The notes below the pieces were generated by a model. It was given only the letters and a program-made list of their open reading frames with translations. It searched no databases and had not been told where the DNA came from. Positions 43,186 through 64,000 of a stretch of 64,000 bases of DNA are shown here, one piece after another (position 1 is the first letter of the stretch; the number at the start of each line of letters is the position of its first letter). The DNA is taken from the NCBI GenBank assembly GCA_009914755.4, contig CP086569.2, forward strand, positions 19,552,001-19,616,000. Reading direction: 5' to 3'. The stretch comes from the human T2T-CHM13v2.0 reference genome, Homo sapiens. Both the position numbers and the translations under genes were made by a program.

Positions 43186-44639
43186 TATAAATAAATATAC
43201 ATATGTGTGTGTGTGTGTGTGTGGTGTGTGTGTGTGTGTATACGTATATATACATATATACATATATGCATATACGAATATGTATATATATATATATATA
43301 TATATATTCCAAGGGAATGGATGTTAAAGACTATCTGTTACCAATCTAGAAAGAGAGGTAAGAATAAAAGCACCTTTTTACTCTCCTTCCTTTCAGTATG
43401 TGATTCCGAAAGGAGATTAGTACATTAGGGGGTGTTCTGTAACTGTAGTTTTTCTTTGCTCCTGAAATTCAGCTCCCATTTAAATGTGACACCCATGACT
43501 GCAGTCATGACATTTTAAGCCATGTTACCAGAGAAACTAAACTTTTGGGTAATGGTATTGCCTTCCACAAGCAGTCTTATTCCTCTTTCCTTTATTTTCC
43601 TTTTATTTCTTAGACTTGTGTTGCCTGCATGCCTTTCTTAAAAAATGGATTTCAGGAAAAACAATGCAATTAGGCAAGACCCCTTTAAGAGAAGTGTCTG
43701 CTAGATTGAACTCTATGTTCTGCCATTGTGGCCAGTAGTAAAGCATGTACCCATAGTGAAATGGTTCCCATTAACTTCTGGACTTAAAGTCCTCTTACTA
43801 ATTAAATACCGTCTTAATAGGAGAGATAATAGAAGCTTTAAAGGAACATAGGAACCAAATGGAGGATTATTTTCCTGCCAGTGGGACACTATGGAGGCTA
43901 AAATTTGTCTACAGAAAACATCTTACTCCTAATTGCTAAAGGCAGAAACTGTCGATCTCAGAAGAGGCCTAGAGCCTGATTTCTAACAGTGTGAAAGAAA
44001 GCTTTGGACTTGCACTGAAAAAAACAGGAACAAAGTGTGCTTCTTAGAGGATTTCCATTTTCACTAGGTGGTGGTGTTGGCTGAGAAATGCTATGTGCTC
44101 ACCAGAGAAGTGGCAACAAGTAAACTCACCACAGAGGAAAAGGGGAAAACTCTGTTCCTAGACTGTAACAATCCCTGCCCATTTCATGCAGAGAAGGATT
44201 AAGAGGCTGGAGATGGAGAAGAAGAGTTTTGCAAAAGGATAGTTAAGGATTCTCTGCAAACACCCTAAATGGGCTGTCGGAGGCTGCGTCCAGGTCATTG
44301 GCCTCTGAATCATGCCAGCATGTGCCCCGGTCAGAAATTCAATACCCATTTGTAATGTGGTGTTCTCCATGTTCTCCCCAGCTAGCCTCACATCCATGTT
44401 TTTATTACGGCAGTTAACGCTAACAGTAGGTACTAGGCTGATGGATTTCCATTGATTTATTGGATTTATTTTAATATAGAGGCTAACTGCACCTCAGAGT
44501 GATAGAACAGGTTTTAAGCTTGCTTCCATACTCACCACTCTGAGGAAGACTGTACCTTGGATTCCCATGCAATGCACCAAAATGACTCAGCTCTGACGAG
44601 TGGAGAAACACTAGGGCTTTTGTATCCTGCTAATTGGGT

Positions 44640-45228
44640 AGAATAACACAGACACACGTGAAGTGGTTTTAAGGAGCAGAGCATTTAATAGGCAGAAAGA
44701 AGGAAGAAGAAAGAAGGAAGAAGCCTCTCTGTACAAAGAGAGAGGGAAGGAGGGGCTCCAAACCCGAGAAAGGAAAGCCTAAGTGAGGCAGAAACCAGCC
44801 AGCTGCATAAGGAGGCTGGAGGAGGTGGTGCCTGATTTCTATAGGCTCAGGGGATTGGTTTGACCAGTCTCCTCACTCATGTAGCCCCTAAAATACTGGC
44901 CCTCCCCCCGCTCCGCCCAGACTTTTAGAATGCAGATGCAGGGTACCAGGATGTTCTGCATACCTGGGGATATGTGGGGGAGGCCATGTGGCCAGGCATT
45001 TGTGGGGGCAAGGTCAAGGAGAAGAGAGCAGGAAGCCATGTTTGGGTGGACTCAGTTTCTGACGGCGGACATTTGCATATCAAAATTTGCCTGCCCGACT
45101 CCAAGAGCCAGGCCTTTCCGGCTAGACAGGAAACTTTTCTGGAGCTGCTTTAAATGAGACAAAAACGTTCCAAGGACACCAGGTTTTCTCTATCTGCTTA
45201 AAATGATTTCTTAATAACTCCTATACAC
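44640..45228 (+). repeat. LTR-like interspersed repeat, copy 2 of 3
   Basis: See 36820-37389. It lies inside duplication unit 1. Confidence 0.55.
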
Positions 45229-45390
45229 TTATGACTCCATATTATTGCAGTGTGCTTTGTTTATTTTATATCATATGTAAATTTTTCAAGTTTTAAGTCA
45301 TTAAATTCATAAATATTTATCATTATTTATGCCACATTTTGTAGCATGCTTGGAAAGGTCTTTCCTCAGATTTATTCTTAGAAGCTGTGA

Positions 45391-45685
45391 CTGGGCACAG
45401 TGGCTCATGCTTGTGATCTCAGCACTTTACGAGGCCCAGGCAGTAGGATCGCTTGAGGTCATGGGTTTGAGAGCAGCCTGCGCAACATAGGAAGACCCTG
45501 TCTGCACAAAAAATTAAAATTAGCTTTACGTGGCAGGTGGTGGTAGTTGCCTCTAGTCACAGTTACTTGGGAGGCTAAAGTGCGAGGACTGCTTGAGCTC
45601 AGGAGTTCGAGGCTGTAGCGAGCCATGATTACACCGCTGCACTCCAGCATTTGTGACAGAGCAAGATTCTGTCTCTACAAAAAAG
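45391..45685 (+). mobile_element. Alu element (shared by both units; unit-2 copy 60130-60425)
   Basis: ctgggcacagtggctcatgcttgtgatctcagcactttacgaggcccaggcagtaggatcgcttgaggtcatgggtttgagagcagcctg... Confidence 0.9.
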
Positions 45686-45797
45686 AAACATACACGATGT
45701 ATAAAATGATACTGTCATAAAACGAAGATTGTGTAAACAGTGTCTGAGCAGTGGCTGAAAGCTCTGAGGAAAAAAAACTGAATGCATTTTTTTTTAG

Positions 45798-45901
45798 GTT
45801 TTTGTATGCATTTATTAAAATAATTAGCAGAATATCATCAAGCTAAAAAGAGTTGTAACATGGAAACACAGACAACTTTGCCATTTATCAGAGATTCTCT
45901 A
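45798..45901 (+). pseudogene. OFD1-like exon 6, frameshifted (..[20 protein letters not shown] against OFD1 [35 protein letters not shown])
   Basis: Acceptor tttttttttag|ggtttttgtatgcatttattaaaataattagcagaatatcatcaagctaaaaagagttgtaacatggaaacacagacaactttgccatttatcagagattctct.., then the donor region ag|gtaatt. The nucleotides are co-linear with the OFD1 cDNA, with indels. Confidence 0.8.
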
Positions 45902-47718
45902 GGTAATTACAGTCTTCTTTCTTAATTTCAATTCTGTTGTTTCCATTTTGAATGAAGGAAGCTACCTGATTTACCAAGTTGTGTGGTTGCTTCTTGAACA
46001 AGAGGGATGCAGCCTGCAGGGAAAAGGGGAATTTACTTTTTCTGGAATCATCCTGGGGGCCCAGCAAGTGCTCTCCAATGTCATTTCCTGGCCTCATGCA
46101 TGCCAGGGCTACATTGGCCAAAGCATGCAAGGATTCAAAGGCCCAAAATCTTCCCTGTTTGTTGAGTTTTACCTCTCTTAACTGGGAGGTCCTTCCTCGT
46201 GTCTTGTCTTAAGTTTACAGCAACCAAGGTAGAAGATTATGGACTATTTGTTTTGCAGAGAACTAGAGAAGTAATTGGCTCATCGCTTCAATTTACAGTG
46301 GAGGAAATCGAGGTCCTCAGAGGGAGGGCAAATTGAAAACGTTCAATCTGCCTCAGAGCAGCTAGTGATGTCCGAATTCTCCCATCCATGATCTAGATTT
46401 TGTGTACTACGCAGCGGGTCGACAATACCATCTTGCCCTTCAGTTTTGCACTCAGTAGAGATGGGAGACAGCTGTTTAAAATGATGTGCTTAATGGATTT
46501 TTGGGCCTTCCTTATTCTTAAATAGTAACAATAACATGTTAGAAGATAAATTCAAAATTTGTATTATCTGACTATGCCTTTAATTAAGTGTAGGTTTAAT
46601 TCCATTAGAAACATTTTACTTGATAATTATCAAGCAGTGCTGTCCAATAGGTGAGCCACATACATAATGTTCAGTTTTCTAGTAGCCACATTGAAAACAG
46701 TAAAAAGAAATAGATAAAATTAGCTTTAACAATATATTTAATCCAATACATCCAAAATATGATTTCAACATGTGTTCAATATAAAAATATGAATGAGATA
46801 TTTCACTTTCTTTTTGCTTTGTTTTTGCACTAAGTTTTGAAATCTCATGTGTTTTTTACATTTAAGGCACATCTCAGTTCAGACTGGTCGCCTTTCCAGT
46901 GTCAATGGCTGTATGTGGCTGGAGGGTCTTGTGTAGGACAGCATTTGAAAAATACAGAAAAGTAGATGAAAAAACATGTCTAAAGTCATGCCTACCAGGG
47001 ACAAACACTATCAATGTTATCGTCTACTTCTGCCAGCCTTTTTCCCACTGGGCATACTTTTTTGGTGTGTTACACATGCTCAAGATTGTACCCTGGGTTC
47101 AGATTTGCACTCTGCTGTGTGGTTGATTTTAGTCCATAGTTGGTTTGAGGCCCACTTGACTAATGGAAGAAAGAGTCAGTCGGTCTCATTTTAGTCCTGG
47201 CTATGCTGTTATTTAATCACTTTTTCAGCTATATTGGTATGTGTTCTTTATCTGCAAAGTGGAGGCATTGAAGTAACATGACCTTTGATTCCTTTACAGT
47301 TATTGTTTTGAATCTGAAGTCAATTTTAACAAAAGTCCGATAAAGAGCTCTCTTCCTTAGCATTTAGTTAATAGGAAGAGACAGCAGTATTTTCTGACTT
47401 TAACTGTACTCTTCAATTTCTATTTCCTCCAACATTTTATGATGAACATTTTGAAACATATAGAAAAGTAGAAAGAATTCTATCAAACACTTATAAACCT
47501 CCCACCTAAATTCCATTATTACATTGGCATTATATATGCTTCATTACTTTTATCTGTTTATCCACACATCCATCTTTCTTTTTTTGTGTATTTTGAAGTA
47601 AATCGCAGACACCCATGCTTTCCCCTAAGTATACTCTTTACCTTTGAAAAAGAAAACTGGCCTCTTACACACCTGACCATGCTTCTATGTCCTCTTTTGA
47701 CATGTTATTTTTTAATAC

Positions 47719-47855
47719 CTGGGAAGTTTCAGCTTATTGATGATCAGTTTGCAGATGCTTACTCTCAGCATATCAAGGGTGAGTCTTTAGAAATAAAGCT
47801 AAATGAATATGAGAGAGAAATAAAAGAGCAAGTTCAGGCAGAAATGTGTCAAAAT
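47719..47855 (+). pseudogene. OFD1-like exon 7. The reading frame is intact but the acceptor AG is mutated to AC (ttaatac|ctggg). It lies 51 bp upstream of provirus 2
   Basis: ..[41 protein letters not shown], then |gtaagc. OFD1 reads [41 protein letters not shown]. Confidence 0.85.
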
Positions 47856-48678
47856 GTAAGCTTTACCTTGTTATTGTTAACAAGAGTGACATTTTTGTTT
47901 GTCTTCTGTGAGAAAAAGTGTATCTGGGTTGCCAGTTGAGTTTGTCTCCCCTGTGTGAGACACCCATGGCGAGCCATGAGTGGCCTCTGAGGAGAAAAGT
48001 CTCCTTATTGCCTTCATGTCTTTATGCCCTGAGAGCGTAACCACTCAGAGAGCATATCCACTCAGTGGCATTCTACAGGTTCCTCGGGGAGATAACACTC
48101 CCTGGAAAGAGTGGAGTGTAATCAAACGTCTTGGCTCCTCCTGAAACCTGCTCCCACCTGCTTCAGTCCCAATATGTTAAATATCTTAAGTAGTTTAAAC
48201 ACACACCTTTACTCAAGAAAATTCACAGAAACTGCCACTGCTACACATCTTATTGAATGACTCATGACTTCTCCTTCATTGATTAATCCTTTTCTTCATC
48301 CCTTCCTCCCCCCTCCCATCTGACATAAGAACAAAGAGCTTGTAAACCAACAAATTGGGTGGAGCCTAAGAACTCTGGGCCATGAACAAGCCTTTGACAC
48401 TGCAGTTCCCTTAACCCACCTTTTAAACACTGATTCTATCTCTTTCTAACTCCTTTGTCTGCACGGGACTCAGGGGACCCACTGGGTGGTGAGGGGATGG
48501 TTTCCCCATGTGGCACACAACACAGTGCTCCAAGTAATCTCTACAAATAATCTGGTAAAGAAATGACAGAGAGTGGAAAGTGGAGGACGCCTGATGAAGG
48601 AGGCCCGAGTACATTTTCACTTCAAGCTCCGTGGGTAAGTAGGGCACTCAGAGAATTCCAGGGTAACCTCAAGAAAAT

Positions 48679-50060
48679 ATAGGTCAGACTGAAAGTAAGT
48701 TTGCCAATTATTTAGCCTGCTGCAGCAGTTATTGTGCCTCAGAGGGATAATTGTGAGTACCCAAAATCTCACTTCTTTGTTCCATAACCTAGAAAAGTTT
48801 TCTCCTTGGTTCCTGGAATATGGAACCATGAATGTAGAAGATTGGGATAAAGTTGGATGAGACTTAAAACAAGCACAGCAAGAGGGCCATGATATTCCCT
48901 TCTCTGCTTGGTCTGTGTGGTCAGCAATTAAAACTGCACTGGAGCCCTTCCACCCAGAGGATGAGGAGGAGTTTCAGGGTGACATAGAAAAGTTTAATAA
49001 CCATGAGTCTGACGATCAGCAAAGTGAACCATCACAGTCTAGTTTTAAATAAGGGGAAGAAACCAGAAGCTCTATATGCTAACCCCCAAAAAACTTATGA
49101 AAGAAAGAGTTCCACCTACAGCAGAAACAGTGCCAACTACTGCGCCTTTATGGGAACGTCTGGAACGGCCAGCTCCGCCTTAGCCTTATGAATTGTTGTT
49201 AAAGGAGCCTGTGACTTGGCTTGCCGCTCCCATTGTTGCACACCCAGCCATTAACTATGGCAAAAGGAAGCTTCAGGCTAACCCAACAGCCAGTTACAGT
49301 GAGGGAATGATCCAGGCTTGTCCACCTGTTAATTGTGGTAAAGGAATGCTTTCATCCAGCCCAAATACAAATTATGGCACAGAGACAATCAAGGCATCTA
49401 CTCGCCAGGCACGAGAAATGGGGGATTTGGATGCTTGGCCGTATCCAGTAATTATTTTTCCTGCTGAGGAGCCTGGAGAACATCCTGAGGCACTCTGGGA
49501 GCCATTTACTTTTAAAATATTAGAAGACTTAAAGCAAGCAATTGGAAAATAGGGGCCAAATTTTCCTTATGTTCATTCCTTGTTACAATCTGTGGCTTAT
49601 AACTGGCATTTAACCTATGGAATCTCTCCAATTTAAACCCTGGTGGATGGATGAAGCAACAAATACGGCACACAGAAATGCTCAAGCTCAACCTGCCATT
49701 GATATCACATCTGATCAATTGCTTGGAATCGGACAGGCATGGGGTACTGTAAATGAACCCATGGTAATGGGTGATGAGGCTGTTGGTCAGTTCAGAACTC
49801 TATGCCTAAGAACCTGGGAAAACATTCATGACCCTGGTACTACTTATCCTTCTTTTAACTCATTTCAACAGTGTCCAAGGGAGACTTATCCAGATTTTAT
49901 CGCCTGTTTCCAAGACGCGGCTCAAAAGACTGTTTCAGATTCTCATGCCAGGAAAGTGATTATTCAGCTGCTTGCTTATGAAAATGCTAATACAGAATGT
50001 CAGGCAGCAATTAGACTTAGTAAGGGAGAGGCAGATCAAAATTACACTTACTGGGTCTAC
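48679..50060 (+). pseudogene. gag: Provirus 2 gag (start codon lost; CA region largely open)
   Basis: Reads ..NYLACCSSYCASEG..EKFSPWFLEYGTMNVED.. (the gag N-terminus). ORF 49193-49552 is the p15-like middle, and ORF 49617-50129 (170 aa) contains the CA major-homology region. Confidence 0.8.
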
Positions 50061-50099
50061 ATTCCATTCCCACTACTGATTAGGCCTGTTGCGTGGTTA

Positions 50100-51760
50100 G
50101 ACCCTCCTGGTGGATGGACCAACAGATAAGCAAGGTCCTACTCATCTAGAGCAGGCGGGAATGTTGGTGAATGTTTCCATTGATTATCGCTTTCCTCCCA
50201 TCTGCCTGGGGCTGGCAGCAGGATGTTTAAATTATGATAAAGTGGGACATAAATGTCCCTACACAAAATGCATCAAAAGCCTCTATTCATGCAATCAATG
50301 AAGCAACATTTTAATCTTTGGACACTATTAAATACTTGAGCACGGCTATGTTATGACACGTTGCCAGATTACTGAATTTAAACCTAATATGAATCCCTGC
50401 CCTAGGCAGGCCACTAAATGGCCTGAAAAGTTAGAGGTGCTAACTTGGGAAGATTGTATTGCAAACAGTGCTGCGCTACTGTAAAATAATTCCTATAACA
50501 TCGCCATTGATTGGGTCCCTAGGGGACACTTTGCAGTAAATTTTACTGGCCAGCGCAAAGATTGTAGAGGGACTCCTGCAAATGACTACCCAGATAATGC
50601 ACCAAAATTATGTAGAAGAATTGAAACAAATTACCCTATTAAGTGGGAGGAGAATGGTATGGCTCCTCCAAGCCCAAAAATGATCGATCCAGTTATGAGA
50701 CCAGAACATCCAGAACTGTGGAAATTAATGATGGCTCAAACCCCAGTTTGGATTTGGATAGGAGAATATAAAACAGAGACTCATAGTAAAAAACTTTCAT
50801 TTGCTGTAGCCATGACCTCTAATCAGACGGTCCCATTGCAGAGTTTTGTTAAACCTCCTTTTATGTTGGCAGCCGGGAAAATTAATTTCCTACCTGACTC
50901 CGAAACCATACCCTGCCTTAACTGTCACCTTTTTACCTGCATTAATTCTACCTTTAATAAAGATAATAGCATTTTTACTGGTTAGGGCCTGAGAAGGAAT
51001 TCAGATACTTGTTTCCCTCAATAGACCTTGGGAGGACTCTCCCTCCATACATATTATCACTGAAGTACTAAAAGGAATATTTAATAGATCAAAGAGATTC
51101 ATATTTACTTTAATAGCTGTGGTCATGGGCCTTATAGCTGTCACAGCTACTGCTTCTGCACTGTTGCTGCTTTGCACTCTTCTATTCAAACTGCGGGCTT
51201 TGTGGATAGTTGGCAGAAAAATTCTTCTAAGCTTTGGAATTCCCAAAGCCAAGTAGATCAAAAATTGGCAAATCAAATTAATGATCTCTGTCAGACAGTA
51301 ATTTGGATGGGGGATTGGACTACTGGCTTGGAGTGTAGAAGTCAAATGCAATGTGATTGGAATACTTTGGATTTTTGTGTTTCTCCTAGCCCTATAATGT
51401 CACTGAACATCATTGAGAGATGATTAGACATCACCCACAAGGAAAAGAACATAGTTTAACACTAGATATTGCCAAACTGAAAAAACAAGTTTTTGAGTCA
51501 TCTCAGGCTCATCTTATCCTGTTGCCTGGAGCTGATATTCTTGCTGGAGCCACTGATGGCTTTTCTAATACCATTCCTTTAAAGTAGATTAAAACCATAG
51601 GTGGATCAACAATTGCAAATTTTATTTTGGTTTGTGTCTGCTTATGCTATTTGTTTTTAGTCAACAGATGCAGACAGCCCCTTGGGTGAGAGGCCAGACA
51701 CCAGCCATGATAGCAATGGCAGTTATTAATCAAAAAATTAATAAAGACAAAAAAGAGAGA
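50100..51760 (+). pseudogene. env: Provirus 2 env (SU and TM; multiple stops and frameshifts)
   Basis: The gag sequence passes directly into env, so pro and pol are absent. The TM hallmarks match HERV-K env: RFIFTLIAV fusion peptide, ..[19 protein letters not shown].., CDWNT.DFC, EHHWD-like, and the membrane-spanning tail ..AMIAMAVINQK. Confidence 0.8.
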
Positions 51761-52637
51761 CATGTGGAAAGGAGAGTTTCTGTGGTGCCAGTTGAGTTGT
51801 TCTCCCCTATGTGAGACATCCATGGGGAGCCATGGGTGGCTGCTGAGGAGAAAAGTCTCCTTATTGCCTCCATGTCTTTATGCCCCCAGAGCATAAGCAC
51901 TCAGCGGCATTCCTCAGGTTGCTCAGGGAGATAACACTCCCTTGAAGCGGTGGAGTATAATCAAACATCTTGGCTCCTCCTGAAAGCTGCTCTCACCCAT
52001 TTCAGTTCTGATAAGTTAAAGATCTTAAGTAGTTTAGACACATGCCTTTGGCTCAAGGAAATTCACAGAAACTGCCACTACTATGTAGCTTATTGAAAGA
52101 CTCACGAGTTCCTCTACACTGATTAATCCTTTTCCTCATCCCTTCCTTCTGCTCCCATCTGTCCTAAGATCAAAATGCTTGTAAACCAACAAATTGGGTG
52201 GAGCCCAGGAACTCTGAACGGTGAGCAAGCCTCCGATGCTTTGGTCCTCTGGAACAGCCTTTTAAATACTGATTCTATCTCTTTCTAACCCTTTGTCTCC
52301 ACCAGACTCAGGGTACGTGCTAGGTGGTGTGGGGCTGGTTGTCTCAACAGCCTTCTAAAGTCTTAATCTAAGGTATAGAAAAAAAAAAAAACTAGGAATT
52401 TTAATAAAGAATGGGATACTCCACTATTGTGCACATTACTTTTATTTCTGTTGACATTTGTTTATGCCTTTTGAGTGAATCCTACAAATATAGTGAGTGA
52501 GATAAAACTAAAGATGAACTAAATGTAATATATTTGGACAGAGCATTAATGTTGAGCCTGGATGTGAAGACAATATTTGTTACTCTTCTTAGAGTATAAT
52601 AGTTAAAATTTTTAATTTTTTTGTGATCAATTTGCAG

Positions 52638-52809
52638 ATAAACTTCTGTTAAGCTGCTGAGATAGCAAAAATTAAAATAAAGCAAAAGGAAAGTATGGGA
52701 AAAATTAACTGTGTTCAGGAAAGATTTTGAGAAGGCTTGTCAGTCGGAGCCTGAAGCCATCATTTTTTGGGAAAAGAGTATCCTTGAGAGAATTCAAAAG
52801 CATCAAGAA
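52638..52809 (+). pseudogene. OFD1-like exon 8/9, corresponding to OFD1 ..[58 protein letters not shown]. Its 5' half is frameshifted
   Basis: Acceptor tcaatttgcag|. ..gctgctgagatagcaaaaattaaaataaagcaaaaggaaagtatgggaaaaattaactgtgttcag is co-linear with OFD1 ..gatactgagatagcaaaaattaaaatggaagcaaaaaagaaatatgaaaaagaattaaccatgtttcag. Then MFRKDFEKACQSEPEAIIFWEKSILERIQKHQE, then donor |gtggta. Confidence 0.8.
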
Positions 52810-54065
52810 GTGGTATTTACAAATATTTTACTGTGTAACTATTTCCTGCAGCTATTAGCAGGTTGGTTCAAGATCCAGGAAAGAGATCACACAATTGGGA
52901 TGACAAGGTCCCAGGAGAGCAATAGGAATTGTGGTAAAGAGTGCAAAGAAAAAGAAGGGTGGCCCTTGAAATATATACACAGATTTGCTTCCTCTGGGAC
53001 AAGTGGAAAAGGAAGAGTGTCAGAGGTGAACAGTCAAGTTGGGATTAAGAGAAACACACCCTAAATAAGCTCCCATCTTCTCAGGCAGATTAGAGCATTA
53101 GATCATGGGTTTTAGGAGCAGCTTAGAGGTGCAGAGTAGCTCATGGGAGTAACAGAAGAACAGCTGTTTAAAGCAGACAGGACTGATCACTTGTATTGAG
53201 GGCCCAGCTGTAGTTGGGGGAGGCTGAAATTAAATGAGACCAAACCATGTGCTTGTAGGTGAGTTTATTTTTTATTTTTATTTTTTGGCAGGTCTGGGGA
53301 GGAATTGTAAGCATCTGTCTCTTCTGCACTTTTCCGTGAGGTTGAAAAGATGGAGATGTTGAAGGACTGGAGCTTTGCAGAGCCTAACTTATTTGATGTG
53401 AGAATGGCAGCCCATTTAACTGCAGATTCTGGGCTTATCTTGCATAGTGAAGGGAAGCAGAGGAGAGGGCAAGTGACTGCTACACCAGGAGGAATGTGAG
53501 TGTTAAGTAGCCGTCTCAGGGATCAAAGACTAGATCCAAAGAGACTGGCAGGTGGAATTATAACAATTGTCCAAGAGTAGAGAATTGCAGGATTAGGTTT
53601 CAGGTGGAAACTGGAAACAAAAATGCACTGTGCTGTCATTGGATGGAGCCATGGAAATGAGGAGAGTTCAAGGTCTCTGGGGTAAAGGAGTCATCAGGGC
53701 TGCAAATGTCATCCATGTGGTCTTTTGAGCTGGTCATCCCGGGAGTAAACGGACAAGAGAGGGTGAGGATGAGCAGTGGCAGGGATTCTATGTTGGCAAG
53801 TGGGAGTGAATCTCTTTTTTCTTAAGAAAGCATATTCTGTTTCTGAGGGCATGTCTTAGACCACACTGGATTTACAGCAGTATTTTTGGCCTGCATCGCA
53901 AACTGCAGCTGCCAGATGTTAAAAGTAGCAAGGCTTTACCCTAGCGTCAAGTCTTGCTTGGGGCTTCTCAATGATACCCAGTTGTTTAATGCTAAGGGCA
54001 CACCCTCTGCAAATTTATATAACATTCCTGGGAATTGGCCTTGCTCCAGCTGTAAAAATGATGTA

Positions 54066-54212
54066 CTGGATGTGAAGAGAGTATTTGTTGCTCTTCTTAT
54101 AGCATAATAGTTAAAATTTTTAAGTTTTTGTGATCAATTTGCAGGTAAAGTTTTGTAAAGCTCCTGAGATAGTAAAAAATAAAAATAACATAAAGCAAAA
54201 AGAAAGTATGGG
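54066..54212 (+). repeat. Junction insert of the tandem duplication: a ~147-bp copy of 52557-52703. It includes the acceptor and 5' half of the OFD1-like exon 8/9 (at 54150-54212)
   Basis: ctggatgtgaagagagtatttgttgctcttcttatagcataatagttaaaatttttaagtttttgtgatcaatttgcaggtaaagttttgtaaagctcctgagatagtaaaaaataaaaataacataaagcaaaaagaaagtatgggaa aligns to 52557-52703. Unit-1 homology to unit 2 ends at 54061 and unit-2 homology to the start of unit 1 (39125) begins at ~54215. Confidence 0.75.
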
Positions 54213-57200
54213 AAGAAATTAGAAATTTCTTGTTTCCATAGTTTACGACAAATTTACCCTTAATTATGGTGCATAGTGTACACTTAGACGTTAGAATTTT
54301 AGAAATCCAACACAATTTTGGAACATCTGTTACTATTATTCACTAAAATTTAACTTAAAGGAAATTGGACATCATTTTGGCAATACCATGTGACTAAACA
54401 AGCCCTGTATATGTCTTTTCTTAATGTTTCAGAAGTCCTCTCACCACCCAGAAAGCCAGGCATTAGGAAGGACAATTTTGCAACTTGAATTATGGTTTTA
54501 GGATGCCTGTTAAATGTTAGAGGTTTAGTACACTCGGTTTTATATAGGAATCCAGATTTCCACAAATTACTTGTTTTGCCAAAATGATGGCTCAAAGGGT
54601 AAAAATCATTTATTAGTGTTTATTATGATGTGACTTGTCATTTGAGTATGACATCCTGCTCAAAGCCAAATTTTACCCTTTCATCAGTTTGTTAATGTTA
54701 ACCTCAATTTGCTTAAATTAAATCTTATAGATCCTTTCATTTAACCTCAACCAATTTGACCATGAGGTGAAATATTTACAAACCTTTCAAAACTCTTTTA
54801 CTAAATGGCAGATTCGTTTCTTAAGATCTCATTGGTATTCCTTTATTTCAATGCTAAGGTTATAAAAAAGACCATACAATAACCTTTTGAGTTTAGTTAA
54901 TGTTCACTGTGAACATTTAGCAACTTTCATTTTTGATGAACACCCTGGTTAATAGGCCATTTTACTTACATACATGGTGTGGATCCTAGAACTCAGACAG
55001 AAGTGCAGATAAAGTGTGAGGTTTCAGCCTCTCACTCCATGTATCCCAGGTTTTACCAACCTGTAAAGCAGGTGAGAAACAACCTTGGAACATTTAGCAA
55101 ATCTGGTGTCTAAATTGAATCATTTAAATGACCTATTTTCATTTTGACAACACTTGCATCTTACCAGTAATTCTCAAGACTATATTACTTAAACTCACGT
55201 GAACTAAAACATATTCAAGTGCTTACTTCTCTTTAAGACAATTAATTAGAGTTTGCTTTTATAGGCATTACACACACCACATATATAGCGACACAAACGG
55301 AAAATTCAGAGATTTTTTTTATGTGCCAGTTTCTTAACTGGATTACTGGCTTCAGGTTGTAGCCCTTGGAGGAATAGGATCATTAATTTGCAGTTTTTAG
55401 GGAGTAATAAGCAGACACAGCAGAAGGCAATTAATCCATCCCCTTTGGGAGTCTTGTTTCTTAGTGGAGGGAGCGGGGGTGAGGATGTTTCTCTATGTTT
55501 TAGGTAGACAAGAGCATGCTTCTCTGATTTATAACTACTATTAGCCATTTCATACAGGGCATTTTCTACCTAGTTATTACACACCAAAGAGGTCTCATAA
55601 TGTGAAGGAACTTGATATCCTCAATACTCACAAAGGTAAATAACACAATGCATAACAGTACGGAGCCTTTGGTATTGGGAGGGAAACATCTGCTTTCAAT
55701 TTGGGGGGTTTCATGAGCAAAACATGTGTGTTTGGTTTTGTTTTGTTTGCGTGTGTGTTTTCTCATATGGAGAATTTGGCACCTACTCTGTTTTTCCCCA
55801 GGAGTCCCGTGCTATCAGAAGTTACGTTAGGGCCTCTCAGGCGTGCATTAAGAGGGTGAAGACAAAAAATGGGGAAAAATAATTCAGTCTACTGAGAAGA
55901 AAAGACCATTTTTTTCAGAAAAAAATTTTAAATGTATCAATAACTTGAATATCTACTTTTAATTAAGCTGAACATTTTTAAGAAAATTCTTAAAAAATTT
56001 CTTATTACTTAACTTTAGCCATGTCAAGTAGTTAAGATTTTTGGTTTTCGAACTTTAGAAAATGTAACCTCACAGATAAAACCAATCTAGGCTATGACTT
56101 AACCGCAAGTGTCCAAGGTATTTTCAGAGGAATGATAGCTTTTGAATCTTTCATTGCAAAACTGTGAGGGAGACAGTGAAAGAGAGTTGACCTAAACAAA
56201 TCTATTTCACTTCCCACCCTCAAGCTGTCTTTGCCCATCTTTGGGTTAGGCTGAGCCAACTTTAGGAGGAGCCTTGTATACCGTCTGTAGTCTAAAACAA
56301 AGAGGATAACAGCTGCTTCCCAAGATATACTTTCCTCTTGCCTGGAAACCAGAACAATAAGCTAGCCACAAGGTTAGGGACCATGGCTTAGGTGTCAGGG
56401 AGGCAGAGGCTACAAGATTTTGACCTTCCCTAAACTGCTTTCAACATCAGTGCTTGAGATATTTTGTAAACCCTGTGTTTGACAGATCGGCTGGGACCAC
56501 CCGGATTGAAAAACTGGCTTATCAGATTTTGTGGCCCTCTTCTATGAACTGACTTATGGGAAGAAAAAACCACCTTTCTAAAATGGCAGAGACTAAAACA
56601 AAGTATTGCCACATGGTTACAGGTTATGTTCCCGAGGACATGGAACAAGATGTAGGACTGTAGCCCAGTTTGTTACTGGCCATTAAGTTGGTCTGGCTTG
56701 AACAGCAGGCTCATGGGGTCCTGGGCCTTCACCCCACTTAAGATACCCTTTTATTGATAGAACCGTACAGAAGGACACGCAAAGCACACAAATTGTCTAC
56801 AACTTAAGACCAAACTCACAAATCTTTTTTTGTTATTTATAAATTTACCTAGAATATAAACAATAATACTCTTTTTTCTTTGTTACCAGTTTGCTCAGTG
56901 AGAGAGAAGCCAAAAGCCAAATGGGTAAGAAATTTTTCCCTTTTGCCAGCATATCAGGCTTCTAAGTTTCCTTTCTTCTAGCTCAACTGTCAGCCAAGCA
57001 TTTTAAGGTTTGGAAAATTAACTTTTCCCAAGTTGGACAAACATTATGAAAGAGACAGATGCCATTTTAAATCACACACACAAAAAATGAAAAACACTAT
57101 AGAAAGGAGTTCCAGTTAAGCTTTTCAAGAGGTATTGCCCCTTTTCCTATTTGGAATAGTACTTCCCCTATTTATTTGCCTACCCTAGTTGCTCTTTTCC

Positions 57201-57667
57201 CTTTTCACCTACTATAGAAGACATATTGCTCATTTCCACAATTTTCTTTTGCTTGCACAGCTGCCTCTTTTAGCTGAAGTTAAGGTTTAGCTTAGGAGGA
57301 TAAAAACATTCCTTCATAAGAGGTCAAATACCTAAGTTAAATTTTGGAAAGCTTCTATATGCCTATCAGGATCATCAGAAATTTGGCGTAAGCCTCCCTT
57401 TACTTTCCAAATTTCCTCCAATGAGAAGAAAACTTGAAGGGGCCCCAAATAAGGGAATACTCAGATGGTTCCCCTGAAACTTGCTTCTCTAATTTTGAGA
57501 AATTTTTCTCTTTGGGCTTGCCTGATATGATCGCTAAATGGACTTGGTTATTTTGCAACACTTACAAAGGTGTAGTAAGAAGGCCATTCCATTGTGCAAA
57601 AGTAAATAAGAAATTTTCCTTCAAAGTTTCAGGGCTGAATGAGTCCAGTTGCTTTAAAATACTCCCA

Positions 57668-57942
57668 GCCAGGTACAGTGGTTCACGCCCGTAATCCCAG
57701 CACTTTGGGAGGCTGTGGTGGGCAGATTTTGAGGTCAGGAGTTTGAGACTAGACTGAGCAACATGGTGAAACTGCATCTCTACTAAAAATACTAAAACTA
57801 GCCAGGTGTGGTGGTGTGCGCCAGTAGTTCCAGCTTCTCATGAGGCTGAGGCAGAAGAATCACTTGACCTCAATAGGTGGAATTTCCAGTGAGTTGAGAT
57901 CTCACCAATGCACTCCAGCATGGGTGAAACAGTGAGATTCTG

Positions 57943-57955
<13 letters not shown>
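57668..57955 (+). mobile_element. Alu element (paralog of 42896-43185), followed by a (CA)n/(TA)n microsatellite at 57950-58100
   Basis: cagccaggtacagtggttcacgcccgtaatcccagcactttgggaggctgtggtgggcagattttgaggtcaggagtttgagac... Confidence 0.9.
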
Positions 57956-57985
<30 letters not shown>

Positions 57986-59399
57986 ATGTATATTTATACT
58001 TATATGTATTTATACATCTATATATACACATTTATACATATATAAAAGTGTGTGTGTGTGTGTGTGTGTGTGTATGTATATATATATATATATATATGTT
58101 CCAAGGGAATGGATGCTAAAGATGATCTGTTAGCAATCTAGAAAGAGACATAAGGATAAAAACATCCTTTTAGTCTCCTTCTTTTCAGTATATGATCCGG
58201 AATGGAGACTAGTATTGTAGGGGGCATTCTGTAACTATTTTTCTTTCTTTGCTCCTGAATTTCAGCTCCCATTTAAAAGTGACACCCATGACTGCAGTCA
58301 TGACACTTTAAGCCATGGCACCAGAGAAACTAAATTTTATGTCTTATTTATGCCGTCCACAGCAGTGTATTCCTCTGTCTTTTATTTCCCTTTTAATTCT
58401 TAGAGTGGTGTTGCCTGTATGACTTTCTTAAAAAATGGATTTCTGGAAAAACCATGCAATTAGGCAAGACCCCTTTAGAGATGTGTCTGCTAGATTGAAC
58501 TCTATATTCTGCTATTGTGGCCAGTACTAAAGCTTTCACCCATAGTGAAATGGTTCCCATTAACTTCTGGACTTAAAGTCCTCTTACTAATTAAATCCTA
58601 TCTTAATAGGAGAGATAATAGATGCTTTAAAGGAATATAGAAACCTAATTGAGGATTATTTTCCTGCCAGTGGGACACTATAGAGACTAAAATTGGTCTT
58701 CAGAAAACATCTTACTCCTAATTGCTAAAGGTAGAAAGTGCCCATCTCAGAAGAGGGCACTTAATGCTAACAGTGTAAAAGAAAGCTTTGGAGATGTATT
58801 GGAAAAACAGGAACAAAGTGTGCTTCTTAGAGGATTTCCACTCTCAGTAGGTGGCAATGTTGGCTTAGAAATGCTATGTCCTCACCAGAGAAGTGGTAGC
58901 AAGTAATCTCACCACAGATGAAAAGGGGAAATCTCTTTTCCTAGGCTGTAATAATCCCTGCCCATTTCATGCAGAGAAGGAGCGAGAGGCTGGAGATGGA
59001 GAAGAAGACTTTTGCAAAAGGATAGTTAATTATTCTCTGCAAACACCCTGAATGGGCTGTTGGAGGCTGCATCCAGACCATAGGCCTCTGAATTATGCCA
59101 GGGTGTGCCCTGGCCAGAAATTCAATGCCCATGTGTAATGTAGTTTTTCTGCATGTTCTCTCCAGCAAGTCTCACATACAAGTTTTTTTTATGGCAGTCA
59201 GCGCTAACTGTATGTACTAGGCTGATGGATTCCCATTGATTTATTGGATTTATTTTAATATAGAAGCTCAGAGAACCTCAGAATGATAGAACAGGTTTTA
59301 ATCTTGCTTGCATACTCACCACCCGGACAAAGACTGTACCTTGGATTCCCGGCCAATGCACCAAAATGATTCAGCTCTGATGAGTGGAGAAAGAGTAGG

Positions 59400-59970
59400 G
59401 CTTTTGTATGCTGCTAATTGGGTCAAACAACACAGACACACTTGGAATAGTTTTAAGAAGCAGAGAGTTTAATAGGCGAGAAAGAAGGAAGAAGAAAGTA
59501 GGAAGAAGCTTCCCTATACAGCTGAGAGAGGAAACCCCAAGTGAGGCAGGAAACCAGCCAGTTACATGAGGAGACTGGAGGAGGTGGTGCCTGACTTGCA
59601 TAGGCTCAGGGGATTGGTTTGATCAGGAATGTCACTCACACAGCCCCTAAAAAACTGGCCCTCCCACATTACATTTGTAATATGAAGATGCAGGGTGCCA
59701 TGATGTTCTGCATACATGAGGATATGTGGGGGCAGCCATGTGGCCAGGCACATGAGGGGGTAAGTCAAGGAAAGAGGGTAGGAAGCCATGTTTTGGTGGA
59801 CCCAGTTTCTAATGGCGGGCAATTGCATATCAAATTTTGCCTGCCAGACTCCAAGAGCCAGGGCTTTGCTGCTAGACAAGAAACTTTTCTGGAGCTGCTT
59901 TAAATGAGACAAAAACGTTCCAAGAATGCTAGGTTTTCTCTATCTGCTTAAAATGATTTCTTAATAACTC
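59400..59970 (+). repeat. LTR-like interspersed repeat, copy 3 of 3 (paralog of 44640-45228 via the tandem duplication)
   Basis: See 36820-37389. Confidence 0.55.
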
Positions 59971-60129
59971 GTATGACTCCATATTATTGCAGTGAATTTT
60001 TAAATTTTATACCATATGTAAATATTCAACTTTTATATAGTTAAATTGATAAATACTTATGATTATTCCTGTCATGTTTTGTAGCATATTTGGACTGGCC
60101 TTTCCTCAGATTTATTCTTAGAAGCTATG

Positions 60130-60425
60130 ACTGGACACAGTGGCTCATGCTTGTGATCCCAGCATTTTGTGAGGCCCAGGCAGTAGCATCACTTGAGGTC
60201 ATGCGTTTGAGACAAACCTGCACAACATAGAAAGACCCTGTCTCTATAAAAACTAAAATTAGCTTTATGTGGTGGGTGGTGGTAGGTGCCTCTAGTCCAG
60301 CTACTTGGAAGGCTGAAGTGAGAGGATTGCTTGAGCTCAGCAGTTTGAGGCTTTCATGAGCCATGATTACACCGCTGCACTCCAGCCTTCGTGAGAGAGC
60401 AAGATTCTGTCTCTACAAAAAGGAA
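60130..60425 (+). mobile_element. Alu element (paralog of 45391-45685)
   Basis: ctggacacagtggctcatgcttgtgatcccagcattttgtgaggcccaggcagtagcatcacttgaggtcatgcgtttgagac... Confidence 0.9.
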
Positions 60426-60538
60426 CGATATATGATGTATAAAATGATATTTTCATATAACTAAGATTGTGTATACAGTGACTGCACAGTGGCTGAAAGC
60501 TCTGAGGAAAAAAAAAACCTGAATGCATTTTTTTTTAG

Positions 60539-60681
60539 GTTTCTATAAACCTAAATCATCAACAAGCTAAAATATCATCAAGTTAAAAATAGTTGTAAAA
60601 AATTGGCAGATTATCATCAAGCTAAGAAGAGTTGTAACATGGAAATGCAGACAAGTTCGACATTTATGAGAGATTCTCTAG
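60539..60681 (+). pseudogene. Duplicate OFD1-like exon 6 in unit 2. It is lengthened by a ~40-nt internal tandem duplication (atcatcaagctaa / agttgtaa motifs repeated)
   Basis: Acceptor ttttttttttag|gtttctataaacc, then ..agctaagaagagttgtaacatggaaatgcagacaagttcgacatttatgagagattctctag|gtaatt (..[16 protein letters not shown]). Confidence 0.75.
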
Positions 60682-61477
60682 GTAATTATACTCTTCCTTT
60701 CTTAATTTCAATTCTGTTGTTTTCATTTTGAATGAAGGAAGTTACCTGATTTACCAAATTGTGTGGTTCCTTCTTGAACTAGGGGGACGCAACCTGCAAG
60801 CAACAAGGGAATTTACTTTTTCTGGAATCATCCTGGGAGGCCAGGAAGTGCTCTCCAGTGTCATTTCCTGGCCTCTTGCATGCCAGGGCTACATTGGCCA
60901 AAGCATGCAGCCATTCAAAGGCCCTGTTTGTTGAGTTTTACCTCTCTTAACTGGAAGGTCCTTCCTCATGTCTTGTTTTAACTTTATAGCCACCAAGGTA
61001 CAAGATTATAGACTATTTTTTTTCAGAGCAGTAGAGAAGTCATTGACTCATTGCTTCATATTCTACTTGAGGAAATCAAGGTCCTCAGAGGGAGAGCAAA
61101 TTGAAAACATTCAGTCTGCCTCAGAGTAGCCAGTGAAGTCCAATTTCTACCATCCATTCTCTAGAGCTTTTTGTACTAGAAGGCCGGTCGAAAATACCAT
61201 CCTGCCTTTTGGTTTCATGCTCAATAGAGACGGGAGAAAGTTGTTTAAACTGATGTGCTTAATTAATGTTTGACCTTCCTTATTCTAAAATAGTAATGGT
61301 AACATGTTAGAAGATAAATTGAAATTTGTATTACATGACTAGGCCTTAAATTAAGTGTGGGTTTAATTCCATTAGAAACATATTACTGATAATTATGAAG
61401 CAGTGCGGTCCAACAGTTGAACCATATATATAATGTTCAGTTTTCTAGTAGTCACACTGAAAACAGTAAAAAGAATT

Positions 61478-61950
61478 AGGTAAAATTAGCTGTAAGATAT
61501 TTAATCCCATACATCTAAAATATGATTTCAACATGTGTTTAATAAAAAAAAAAAATACGAATGAGATAATTCACTTTCCTTTTTTTTTTCACTTAGTTTT
61601 GAAATCTCTTTGTTTTTTTTTTTTTTTTTTTTTCATTTAAGGCACATCTCAGTTCAGACTGGTCACCTTTCCACTGTCAATGGATGCATGTGGCTGGAGA
61701 GTCCTTCTTTACTTAAAGAAGTAGGTAAAATTAGCTTTAAGATATTTAATCCCATACATCTAAAATATGATTTCGACATGTGTTTAATAAAAAAAAGTAC
61801 GAATGAGATAATTCACTTTCTTTTTTTTTTTTTTTTTTTTTCAGTTAGTTTTGAAATCTCTTTGTTTTTTTTCATTTAAGGCATATCTCAGTTCAGACTG
61901 ACCACCTTTCCAGTGTCAATGGCTGCATGTGGCTGGAGAGTCCTTTATTG
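61478..61950 (+). repeat. Local tandem duplication (two ~230-bp copies, 61478-61710 and 61727-61950) present only in unit 2. Unit 1 has a single copy at ~46700-46930
   Basis: gtaaaattagct.taagatatttaatcccatacatctaaaatatgatttc.acatgtgtttaataaaaaaaa..tacgaatgagataattcactttc(t)n..agttttgaaatctctttg(t)n catttaaggca.atctcagttcagactg..cacctttcca.tgtcaatgg.tgcatgtggctggagagtcc occurs twice in tandem. Confidence 0.8.
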
Positions 61951-62045
61951 GAAAGCATTTGAAAAATACAGAAAAGTAGATGGAAAAATATGTCTAAAGT
62001 CATACCTACCAGGGAGAAACACTATCAATGTTATCGTCTACTTCT

Positions 62046-62184
62046 GGGCCATGAGGAAGCCTCCAATACTCCAGTCCCCCGGACCTGCCTTTTCAACACT
62101 TATTCGGTCTCTCTCTTTCTATCAGCTTTGTCGCCGCTAGACTCAGGGTACCTGCTGGGTGGTGTGGGGGTGGTTTCCCCAACA
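62046..62184 (+). repeat. 139-bp HERV-K LTR 3'-terminal remnant in unit 2, followed by the intact flank/TSD gtcttc. This is the footprint of provirus 2 after a ~5.2-kb deletion
   Basis: ctgggccatgaggaagcctccaatactccagtcccccggacctgccttttcaacacttattcggtctctctctttctatcagctttgtcgccgctagactcagggtacctgctgggtggtgtgggggtggtttccccaaca aligns to the last ~140 bp of the provirus-2 LTRs. Upstream homology to unit 1 stops at ctacttctg (unit 1 47024-47032). Confidence 0.8.
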
Positions 62185-62464
62185 GTCTTCTAAAGTCTTA
62201 ATCTTTGGTATATCAAAAACAACCTAGAAATTTTAATAATGGGATACTCTACCATTCTGCACATTATTTTTATTTATGTTGACATTTGTTTATGACTTTT
62301 GAGTGAGTCCTACAAATACAGTGAGTGAGATAAAACTAAAGATGAAGTAAATGTAATGTACTTGGACAGAGCATTAATGTTGAGCCTGGATGTGAAGAGA
62401 GTATTTGTTACACTTATTGGAGTGTAATAGTTAAAATTTTTAAATTTTTGTGATCAATTTGCAG

Positions 62465-62636
62465 GTAAACTTTTGTTAAGCTGCTGAGATAGCAAAAATT
62501 AAAATAGAGCAAAAAGAAAGTATGGAAAGAATGTAGCTGTGTTCAGGAAATATTTTGAGAAGGCTTGTCAATCAGCGGCTGAAGCCATCATTTTTTGGGA
62601 AAAGAGTATCCTTGAGAGAATTCAAAACACCAAGAG
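62465..62636 (+). pseudogene. Duplicate OFD1-like exon 8/9 in unit 2
   Basis: tgatcaatttgcag|gtaaacttttgttaagctgctgagatagcaaaaattaaaatagagcaaaaagaaagtatggaaagaatgtagctgtgttcaggaaatattttgagaaggcttgtcaatcagcggctgaagccatcattttttgggaaaagagtatccttgagagaattcaaaacaccaagag|gtggta. Confidence 0.75.
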
Positions 62637-64000
62637 GTGGTATTTACAAATATTTTACTGTGTAACTATTTCCTGCAGCTATTAGTAGGTTGGTTCAAGA
62701 TCCAGGAATGAGATGATACAATTGAGCTAACAAGGTCCCAGAAAAGCAATAGGAATTGTGGTAAAGAGTGCAAAGAAAAAGAAGGGTGGCCCTTGAAATA
62801 TGTACACAGATTTGCTTCCTCTGGGACAAGTGGAAAAGGAAGAGTGTCAGAGGTGAACAGTCAAGTTGGGATTAAGAGAAACACACCCTAAATAAGCTCC
62901 CATCTTCTCAGGCAGATTAGAGCATTAGATCATGGGTTTTAGGAGCAGCTTAGAGGTACAGAGTAGCTCATGGGAGTAACAGAAGAACAGCTCTTTAAAA
63001 CAGAGAGGACTGATCACTTGTATTGAGGGCCCAGCTGTAGTTGAGGGAGCCTGAAATTAAATGAGACCAAACCATGTGCTTGTAGGTGAGTTTATTTTTT
63101 ATTTTTATTTTTTGGCAGGTCTGGGGAGAAATTGTAAGCATCTGTCTCTTCTGCACTTTTCAGTGAGGCTGGAAAGATGGAGATGTTGAAGGACTGGAGC
63201 TTTGCAGAGCCTAACTTACTTGATGTGAGAATGGCAGCCTATTTAACTGCAGATTCTGGGCTTATCTTGCATGGTGAAGGGAAGCAGAGGAGAGGGCAAG
63301 TAACTGCTACACCATGGAGAAAGTGAGGGTTAAGTAGCTGTCTCAGGGATCAAGAACTAGATCCAAAGAGACTGGCAGGTGGAATTATAACAATTGTCCA
63401 AGAGTAGAGAATTGCAGGACTAGGTTTCAGGTGGAAACTGGAAACAAAATGCACTGTGCTGCCATTGGATGGAGCCATGGAAATGAGGAGAGTTCAAGGT
63501 CTCTGGGGTAAAGGAGTCATCAGGGCTGCAATTGTCATCCATGTGGCCTTTTGATCTGGTCATCCCGGGAGTAAACGGACAAGAGAAGGTGAGGATGAGC
63601 AGTGGCAGGGATTCTATGTTGGCAAGTGGGAGTGAATCTTTTTTTTCTTAAGAAAGCATATTCTGTTTCTGAGGGTATGTCTTAGACCACACTGGATTTA
63701 CAGCAGTATTTTTGGCCTACATCGTGAACTGCTTCTCCCAGATGTCAAAAGTAGCAAGGCTTTACCCTAGCATCAAGTCTTGCTTGGGGCTTCTCAATGA
63801 GACCTAGTCATTTAATGCAAGGGCGCACCCTCTACAAATCTGTATAACATTCCTGGGAATTGGGCTTGCTCCAGCTATAAAAATGAGTTTTGGAAGCACA
63901 GTTTTTTGAGATGTTTGGATTGTGTTTAGACTAATAAATTCATCTGCAAGATAGGTGACTGACTAGATTCCTGTTTATTTAACTGTGAGTATCTGAAGGC

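What the first reader, a model, noticed from the sequence alone, without database searches (positions are those of the whole stretch)
61990..62190. Unit 2 carries a 139-bp LTR stub where unit 1 has the whole provirus. Order of events: integration, then duplication, then microhomology-mediated deletion
In unit 2 the homology with unit 1 runs to ..cgtctacttctg (unit 1 47024-47032) and then jumps to ggccatgaggaagcctcc.., which aligns to the last ~140 bp of the provirus-2 LTRs. It ends ..ccccaaca followed by the same flank/TSD (gtcttctaaagtc) as downstream of provirus 2. So the unit-2 ancestor already contained the provirus and the duplication post-dates integration. Unit 2 later lost ~5.2 kb, namely 870 bp of 5' flank (including OFD1-like exon 7), the 5' LTR, all internal sequence and three quarters of the 3' LTR. 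The breakpoint shares ctg(g) microhomology (cttctg|ggccatga against LTR ..aactctgggccatga..), pointing to a non-homologous/microhomology deletion and not LTR-LTR recombination. This gives a relative chronology for three events within one locus.
Basis: seen in the sequence. Interest (0 to 1): 0.65.

Follow-up and report, generated by a model that had tools for sequence, protein, structure and literature searches.

The report
Truncated retroviral LTR in duplicated pseudogene
A 138-base leftover of an ancient endogenous retrovirus (HERV-K14C) sits in the second copy of a duplicated piece of a dead OFD1 gene on the human Y chromosome, showing that the virus inserted before the duplication and was later mostly deleted; this is correct but ordinary genome archaeology.

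Summary
Window 39125-54061 (unit 1) and 54221-63886 (unit 2) are a tandem duplication. Their homology stops at 47032|62046 and resumes at 52217|62047. Unit 2 positions 62047-62184 are the last 138 nt of an LTR, and the TSD GTCTTC follows at 62185-62190. The same hexamer lies 5' of the unit-1 provirus at 47901-47906. The junction has 4 nt of microhomology (TCTG).

The LTR is LTR14C, so the provirus is HERV-K14C (HML-9). A 127-nt string from published element chrY:18622534-18626952 matches the window exactly. The window is therefore human Yq11.222, inside an unprocessed OFD1 pseudogene next to a sedlin relic.

The order integration, then duplication, is well supported by structure. The final junction is non-homologous, and unit 2 lacks exon 7. 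Three caveats remain:
- A solo-LTR intermediate cannot be excluded.
- The deletion may have arisen within the duplication event itself, whose junction carries a 155-bp templated insert.
- The downstream flank was later partly homogenised (3% divergence against 13% elsewhere).

Amplification of HERV-K14C together with its flanks on the Y chromosome is already published. Interest is low.

The parts
62043..62046 (+). Junction microhomology TCTG, shared by the unit-1 flank (47029-47032) and the LTR (..CTCTG|GGCC, 52212-52216 and 48373-48377)
62047..62184 (+). 138-nt 3'-terminal remnant of an LTR14C (HERV-K14C/HML-9) 3' LTR. It corresponds to roughly LTR positions 451-588, the part downstream of the AATAAA signal (approximately U5).
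62185..62190 (+). Target-site duplication copy GTCTTC retained in unit 2
47901..47906 (+). 5' target-site duplication GTCTTC of provirus 2 (unit 1)
47907..48510 (+). 5' LTR of provirus 2 (LTR14C), followed by a decayed Lys-type PBS TGGCACACAACACAGTGC
48511..51762 (+). Internal region of provirus 2. It is heavily deleted: gag remnant and env/TM, no pro-pol.
   Evidence: PMC9178832 table
51763..52349 (+). 3' LTR of provirus 2 (587 nt). Positions 52215-52341 are an exact reverse-complement match to published chrY_18622534_18626952.
52350..52355 (+). 3' target-site duplication in unit 1, now GCCTTC (one T>C change)
47033..52216 (+). Interval of unit 1 with no counterpart in unit 2 (5,184 bp): 874 bp of intron/exon 7/intron, the 5' LTR, the interior and about 450 nt of the 3' LTR
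47724..47856 (+). OFD1-like exon 7 (..[42 protein letters not shown]|gtaagc), present only in unit 1
39125..54061 (+). Unit 1 of the intragenic tandem duplication (OFD1-like exons 6-8 with provirus 2)
54066..54221 (+). Templated filler at the duplication junction: a copy of 52558-52712 (intron 7 / start of exon 8), 89% identical to both the unit-1 and unit-2 versions
54221..63886 (+). Unit 2 of the tandem duplication (exon 6', stub, exon 8'). Unrelated sequence follows from 63887.

Best explanation
A HERV-K14C (HML-9) provirus integrated in sense orientation into intron 7 of a Y-linked, unprocessed OFD1 pseudogene. It lies 45 bp downstream of exon 7 and made the 6-bp target-site duplication GTCTTC.

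A ~15-kb intragenic segment (intron 5 to intron 8, provirus included) was then duplicated in tandem, with a 155-bp templated filler at the junction.

In copy 2, a 5.2-kb interval was removed by a non-homologous end-joining or template-switch event that used 4 nt of microhomology (TCTG). The interval ran from unique intron sequence 874 bp upstream of the provirus to position ~450 of the 3' LTR. What remains is the last 138 nt of the LTR (roughly U5, with no promoter and no poly(A) signal), the 3' TSD copy and the downstream flank.

Shown directly: the structures, the junction, the family assignment and the order integration before duplication. Inferred: that the deletion was a single event, that it came after rather than during the duplication, and the enzymatic pathway.

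Later events were a unit-1-specific Alu insertion, a 237-bp local tandem duplication in unit 2, and patchy gene conversion between the two downstream flanks.
For: - **Duplication blocks and breakpoints:**
- **Junction sequence and microhomology:**
- **Identical LTR end, TSD and flank in both units, with GTCTTC 5' of the unit-1 provirus:**
- **No trace of the missing 5.2 kb in unit 2:**
- **Stub aligns to nt ~451-588 of published LTR14C copies** (E 2e-38), and all four LTRs in the window align full length at 82-89%.
- **Betaretrovirus-type domains in the sister provirus 1** (Gag_p10, Gag_p24, dUTPase, RVP, G-patch, RVT, GP41).
- **Provirus 1 capsid is closest to HERV-K Gag structures** (E 9e-70).
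- **The stub was not delivered by recent conversion.** Stub against unit-1 3' LTR gives p = 0.22-0.24. The 5' against the 3' LTR over the same bases gives 0.27.
- **Divergence is compatible with integration first.** Whole-LTR non-CpG divergence is 0.162, against 0.104-0.138 for the upstream duplicated sequence.
- **Exon map shows 6, 7, 8 in unit 1 and 6', 8' in unit 2:**
- **Published context.** HML-9 proviruses on the Y chromosome share deletions and flanks, i.e. they were amplified with their surroundings (PMC11209481). OFD1Y pseudogenes that keep their introns sit in SEDL-OFD1Y clusters on the Y chromosome (PMC3193505). A Sedlin_N relic lies at 9994-10664 on the minus strand.
Against: - Nothing contradicts the order integration before duplication.
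- The 138 nt give a star-like tree with no shared derived sites joining the stub to the 3' LTR. Divergence therefore does not independently confirm the order.
- Divergence between the units is very uneven: stub 0.24, upstream block 0.11-0.15, downstream flank 0.03-0.09. A single clean duplication with no later exchange is thus not the whole story.
- One event versus two in unit 2, and deletion during versus after the duplication, cannot be told apart from this one sequence.
- Four nt of microhomology has roughly a 1-2% chance expectation at a random blunt join (my estimate). That is suggestive of the mechanism, not proof.
Confidence: 0.8

Rival explanations
1. Two steps in unit 2. First, LTR-LTR homologous recombination reduced the provirus to a solo LTR. 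A later ~1.3-kb microhomology-mediated deletion then removed the 874-bp flank, the 5' TSD and the first ~450 nt of the solo LTR.
For: Solo-LTR formation is the commonest fate of proviruses (established knowledge). The present junction would be identical under this path. The stub shows no diagnostic 5'/3' LTR sites that could exclude it.
Against: It needs one more event than the single deletion. There is no positive evidence for it.
Confidence: 0.12
2. The 5.2-kb gap was never a separate deletion. It arose in the same replication-based complex rearrangement (serial template switching, FoSTeS/MMBIR type) that made the tandem duplication. While copying unit 2, the polymerase jumped from 47032 to 52217 on TCTG microhomology.
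For: The duplication junction contains a 155-bp templated insertion copied from 52558-52712. Its divergence of 0.113 from both flanks is about as old as the duplication. That is a hallmark of template switching. The gap junction has microhomology and no filler.
Against: There is no way to date the gap itself. The nearby 237-bp local duplication in unit 2 is younger than the main duplication, because its copies are 91.5% alike against 84-88% to unit 1. Rearrangements therefore continued at this spot after the duplication.
Confidence: 0.15
3. The duplication came first and the provirus integrated only into unit 1. The LTR end plus flank was later copied into unit 2 by ectopic gene conversion or break repair.
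For: Sequence exchange between the two downstream flanks did occur. The core 52919-53889 is only 3.2% diverged, against ~13% for the upstream block.
Against: The stub and the first 100 bp after it are the most diverged part of the whole duplication, at 22-24% and 13%. They were therefore not part of a recent transfer. A conversion tract would also need homology on its left side, and there is none.
Confidence: 0.02

Closest known systems
HERV-K14C (HML-9) proviruses with LTR14C on the human and chimpanzee Y chromosome, amplified together with flanking DNA (PMC9178832, PMC11209481; Flockerzi 2005 and Sin 2010 as cited there)
   Same: The LTR sequence, 587-nt length, TG..CA ends and 6-bp TSD all agree. 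Provirus 2 is the catalogued element chrY:18622534-18626952, confirmed by an exact 127-nt match. The published LTR divergence of 0.194 matches the 80.6% BLAST identity.
   Different: The catalogue lists proviruses and near-complete solo LTRs. The 138-nt stub in the neighbouring duplicate, and its use as a marker for the order of events, are not mentioned in the parts of those papers that I read.
Solo LTRs formed by LTR-LTR homologous recombination
   Same: Both are remnants of a provirus that keep the 3' LTR end and the 3' TSD.
   Different: A solo LTR is complete and flanked by both TSD copies. Here 77% of the LTR, the 5' TSD and 874 bp of host flank are missing, and the junction is non-homologous.
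Illegitimate (microhomology-mediated) deletions that truncate LTR elements, and MMEJ or FoSTeS/MMBIR junctions in human structural variants (established knowledge)
   Same: A few nt of microhomology are present at both parental breakpoints and one copy is kept. There is no long homology. The deletion spans element and flank.
   Different: Nothing unusual. The pathway cannot be assigned from sequence alone.
OFD1Y pseudogene family in SEDL-OFD1Y clusters of the primate Y ampliconic region (PMC3193505)
   Same: The exon-intron structure is retained and there are stop codons in exons. A sedlin relic lies upstream on the opposite strand. The location is Yq11.222.
   Different: This copy additionally carries an internal tandem duplication of exons 6-8 in which the second copy lacks exon 7.

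Membership tests
HERV-K14C / HML-9 (LTR14C) | LTR sequence similarity to LTR14C over its full length (~587 nt), with TG...CA termini | tested here: met
   All four LTRs align end to end with three published human LTR14C solo LTRs at 82-89% identity. The stub aligns to nt ~451-588 at 80-85%, E 2e-38. The 3' LTR is 587 nt long, starting TGTGG and ending CAACA.
HERV-K14C / HML-9 (LTR14C) | Betaretrovirus-like coding content (gag p10/p24, dUTPase and G-patch in pro, RT, TM) | tested here: met
   Pfam hits on provirus 1 in three frames. The capsid is closest to HERV-K Gag structures 6SSJ and 32YY, E ~9e-70. This was not tested directly on provirus 2, which aligns to provirus 1 at 81-85%.
HERV-K14C / HML-9 (LTR14C) | Lys-type primer binding site just after the 5' LTR | tested here: inconclusive
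   TGGCACCTAACACGGGGC (provirus 1) and TGGCACACAACACAGTGC (provirus 2) resemble the recalled tRNA-Lys PBS TGGCGCCCAACGTGGGGC but have 4-6 changes. PMC9178832 reports that only 2 of 11 HML-9 PBS sequences still type as Lys.
HERV-K14C / HML-9 (LTR14C) | Identity with a catalogued element | tested here: met
   A 127-nt string of chrY_18622534_18626952 is the exact reverse complement of window 52215-52341.
Solo LTR from LTR-LTR recombination | Complete LTR flanked by both copies of the target-site duplication | tested here: not met
   Only the last 138 nt are present. There is no GTCTTC upstream of the stub. The upstream sequence is homologous to 46704-47032, which lies 874 bp away from the integration site.
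Microhomology-mediated deletion or template-switch junction | Short identical sequence at both parental breakpoints with one copy retained, no extended homology and no inserted bases | tested here: met
   TCTG occurs at 47029-47032 and at the LTR breakpoint in both provirus-2 LTRs and two of the three LTR14C copies compared. It occurs once in unit 2, at 62043-62046, and the neighbouring bases are unrelated.
Microhomology-mediated deletion or template-switch junction | Dependence on a specific repair pathway (Pol theta MMEJ, or replicative switching) | not testable with these tools
   An ancient germline event. Only the junction sequence is available.
Tandem segmental duplication | Two adjacent colinear copies in the same orientation, with unrelated sequence outside both ends | tested here: met
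   Blocks. Left edge at 39125|54221 and right edge at 54061|63886, followed by unrelated sequence.
Primate Y-linked OFD1 pseudogene (SEDL-OFD1Y cluster) | OFD1 exons in genomic (intron-containing) arrangement with disabling mutations, and a sedlin relic adjacent | tested here: met
   There are colinear tblastn hits to exons 2-8 (six exon blocks, E down to 2e-18) with in-frame stops. The query was the human OFD1 sequence recalled from memory, so the name is a lead and not a database result. Sedlin_N Pfam hit, E 1.3e-18, on the minus strand at 9994-10664. Family described in PMC3193505.

The most novel reading that the evidence does not exclude
The intragenic duplication, its 155-bp templated junction insert and the 5.2-kb gap in copy 2 may be products of one ancient replication-based complex rearrangement (serial microhomology-mediated template switches) on the ancestral catarrhine Y chromosome. 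They would then not be three separate events. If so, the stub would mark a polymerase jump rather than a later deletion.
Probability: 0.15. Interest if true: 0.3.

Novelty: already known. Interest (0 to 1): 0.13.

Why it matters
It matters little beyond this locus. The stub is a clean internal marker showing that a catalogued HERV-K14C provirus was already in place when exons 6-8 of this OFD1Y pseudogene were duplicated. That fits the published picture of HERV-K14C copies being amplified with their flanks on the Y chromosome. It could serve as a presence/absence character for dating steps in the build-up of the Yq11.222 ampliconic region across catarrhine Y assemblies. It reveals no new mechanism or element type.

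Tried and rejected
1. **Divergence as a test of the order of events.** The 133 alignable stub positions give a star tree: 17 sites specific to the 5' LTR, 15 to the 3' LTR and 10 to the stub, with no unambiguous shared derived sites. I dropped this as independent evidence.
2. **A later second duplication delivering stub plus flank.** The downstream block is 92.5% identical against 85% upstream, which suggested this. I rejected it for three reasons. The stub and the adjacent 100 bp are the most diverged part. The low-divergence block is internal, at 52919-53889. No third unit or second junction follows 63886.
3. **The 237-bp local tandem duplication (61470-61945) arising in the same event as the main duplication.** Rejected. 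Its copies share derived changes and are 91.5% alike.
4. **Finding other copies or an empty site in public data.**
   - The junction 20-mer has 0 hits in metagenome contigs.
   - An exon-7 24-mer gave one host-derived contig, L003, that does not reach the integration site.
5. **Naming OFD1 from databases.**
   - The protein search returned two unnamed ENA fragments.
   - PDB gave nothing.
   - Pfam gave nothing for the OFD1 parts.
   - The name therefore rests on a recalled sequence plus the sedlin neighbour and the literature.
6. **Rfam scan of the whole window.** No hits.
7. **Flockerzi et al. 2005 (PMC548434).** Not held in the library.

Full report
**Observation.** A self-comparison of the window shows a tandem duplication. 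Unit 1 spans 39125-54061 and unit 2 spans 54221-63886. The units are colinear in five blocks. Unit 1 additionally carries an Alu at 40835-41138 and a 4.4-kb LTR element at 47907-52349.

Homology upstream of the element ends exactly at 47032|62046. Unit 1 reads ..ATCGTCTACTTCTG|CCAGCC and unit 2 reads ..ATCGTCTACTTCTG|GGCCATGAGG. Homology resumes at 52217|62047, inside the 3' LTR.

Unit 2 positions 62043-62184 align to the 3' ends of three of the four LTRs in the window (E 1e-12 to 5e-17 for the two separate LTR hits). They also align to nt ~451-588 of published human LTR14C solo LTRs at 80-85% identity (E 2e-38).

The stub ends ..CCCCAACA and is followed by GTCTTC|TAAAGTCTTAATCT. The unit-1 3' LTR is followed by GCCTTC|TAAAGTCTTAATCT. 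The unit-1 5' LTR is preceded by GTCTTC at 47901-47906.

A word-7 BLAST of the 5,184-bp interval 47033-52216 against unit 2 finds only the 5' LTR tail matching the stub.

**What the element and the locus are.** Provirus 1 (20938-26845) belongs to the same family and has its own TSD, GCTAC. It encodes remnants of Gag_p10, Gag_p24, dUTPase, RVP, G-patch, RVT_1/RVT_thumb and GP41. Its capsid is closest to HERV-K Gag structures (E ~9e-70).

All four LTRs align full length to LTR14C sequences taken from the supplement of PMC9178832. The family is therefore HERV-K14C, also called HML-9.

A 127-nt string of the catalogued element chrY_18622534_18626952 is the exact reverse complement of window 52215-52341. 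That element is listed at Yq11.222, 4,419 bp, with LTR divergence 0.194 and an estimated age of 48.5 My. The window is therefore human Y chromosome. If the window and hg38 are colinear, the stub lies near chrY:18,612,691-18,612,828.

The host sequence is an intron-containing OFD1 pseudogene. Exons 2-8 give colinear tblastn hits with in-frame stops. Unit 1 holds exons 6, 7 and 8, while unit 2 holds 6' and 8' only. The query for this search was recalled from memory, so the gene name is a lead rather than a database result. A Pfam-confirmed sedlin relic lies upstream on the opposite strand. This matches the SEDL-OFD1Y clusters described for the primate Y chromosome (PMC3193505).

The provirus sits 45 bp downstream of exon 7, in sense orientation.

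**Order of events.** Integration before duplication follows from structure. The same LTR terminus, TSD and flank occur in both units.

Recent transfer of the stub from unit 1 is excluded by its divergence from the unit-1 3' LTR, which is 22-24%. That is close to the 5'-3' LTR divergence over the same bases (27%).

The stub carries no useful phylogenetic signal. There are 17 changes specific to the 5' LTR, 15 specific to the 3' LTR and 10 specific to the stub, with no clear shared derived sites.

Whole-LTR non-CpG divergence is 0.162. The upstream duplicated block shows 0.104-0.138. These values are compatible with duplication somewhat after integration.

The Alu present only in unit 1 has an empty site in unit 2, so it inserted after the duplication. 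From recalled consensus sequences it looks AluY-like.

**The junction.** TCTG is present at the end of the unit-1 flank (47029-47032). It is also present at the LTR breakpoint (..CTCTG|GGCC) in both provirus-2 LTRs and in two of the three independent LTR14C copies compared. It occurs once in unit 2. Surrounding bases are unrelated.

This is a non-homologous, microhomology-type junction, not LTR-LTR recombination. The breakpoint lies about 23 nt downstream of the LTR's AATAAA. The remnant is therefore roughly U5 and lacks promoter and poly(A) signals (inference).

**What remains open.**
1. A solo-LTR intermediate followed by a 1.3-kb deletion would leave the same junction.
2. The duplication junction holds a 155-bp templated copy of 52558-52712, which is typical of replicative template switching. 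The 5.2-kb gap could therefore belong to the same event.
3. Divergence between the units is heterogeneous.
   - Upstream block: 0.11-0.15.
   - First ~570 bp of downstream flank: 0.088.
   - Core 52919-53889: 0.032.
   - The likelihood-ratio statistic for a low-divergence block is 26.

The third point is best explained by later gene conversion between the flanks. It does not touch the stub.

**Assessment.** It is nevertheless an ordinary case of provirus decay inside a Y-chromosomal segmental duplication. The provirus is already catalogued. Amplification of HERV-K14C with its flanks on the Y chromosome is published (PMC11209481). Microhomology deletions of LTR elements are textbook. Interest is low.

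Noticed in passing
window 52919-53889 versus 62749-63715: The core of the downstream duplicated flank is only 3.2% diverged, against ~13% for the upstream block and 22-24% for the stub. The pattern is patchy and suggests later gene conversion between the two units.
   Followed up: partly
window 54066-54221: The duplication junction contains a 155-bp same-orientation copy of 52558-52712 (end of intron 7 and start of OFD1-like exon 8). It is 11% diverged from both the unit-1 and unit-2 versions. This is a templated insertion typical of template switching.
   Followed up: partly
window 61470-61706 and 61715-61945: A 237-bp local tandem duplication lies in unit 2, 100 bp upstream of the deletion junction. 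The copies are 91.5% alike and share derived changes relative to unit 1 (46704-46928), so it is younger than the main duplication.
   Followed up: partly
window 40835-41138: An Alu in minus orientation (poly-T on the left) is present in unit 1 only, and unit 2 has the empty site at 55917-55920. By recalled consensus it looks AluY-like (GAGATCGAGACCAT). It inserted after the duplication.
   Followed up: partly
window 20938-26845: A second HERV-K14C provirus (5.9 kb, TSD GCTAC, LTRs 84% alike) lies upstream of OFD1-like exon 2, presumably in intron 1, and carries gag, dUTPase-PR-G-patch, partial RT and TM. Six of its 15-mers, searched in both orientations, are absent from the published catalogue of 23 human HML-9 proviruses. 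It may have been missed there.
   Followed up: partly
window 9994-10664, minus strand: Sedlin (TRAPPC2/SEDL) relic exons give a Pfam Sedlin_N hit with E 1.3e-18. They lie head-to-head with the OFD1 pseudogene, as in the X-linked gene pair and the Y clusters.
   Followed up: yes
L003 (ERZ781269 contig, 1778 bp), also L001 and L002: These are host-derived contigs in metagenome assemblies. L003 is 99% identical to window 47181-47854 (intron 6 and exon 7). It then continues into spliced OFD1 exons 8-11 that are only 81% like the window's exon 8. It is either an assembly chimera between paralogues or a partly processed copy. L001 joins exon 6 directly to exon 7.
   Followed up: partly
window 34959-35177: An (AAAG)n microsatellite of about 54 copies lies in the OFD1-like intron 5.
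   Followed up: no
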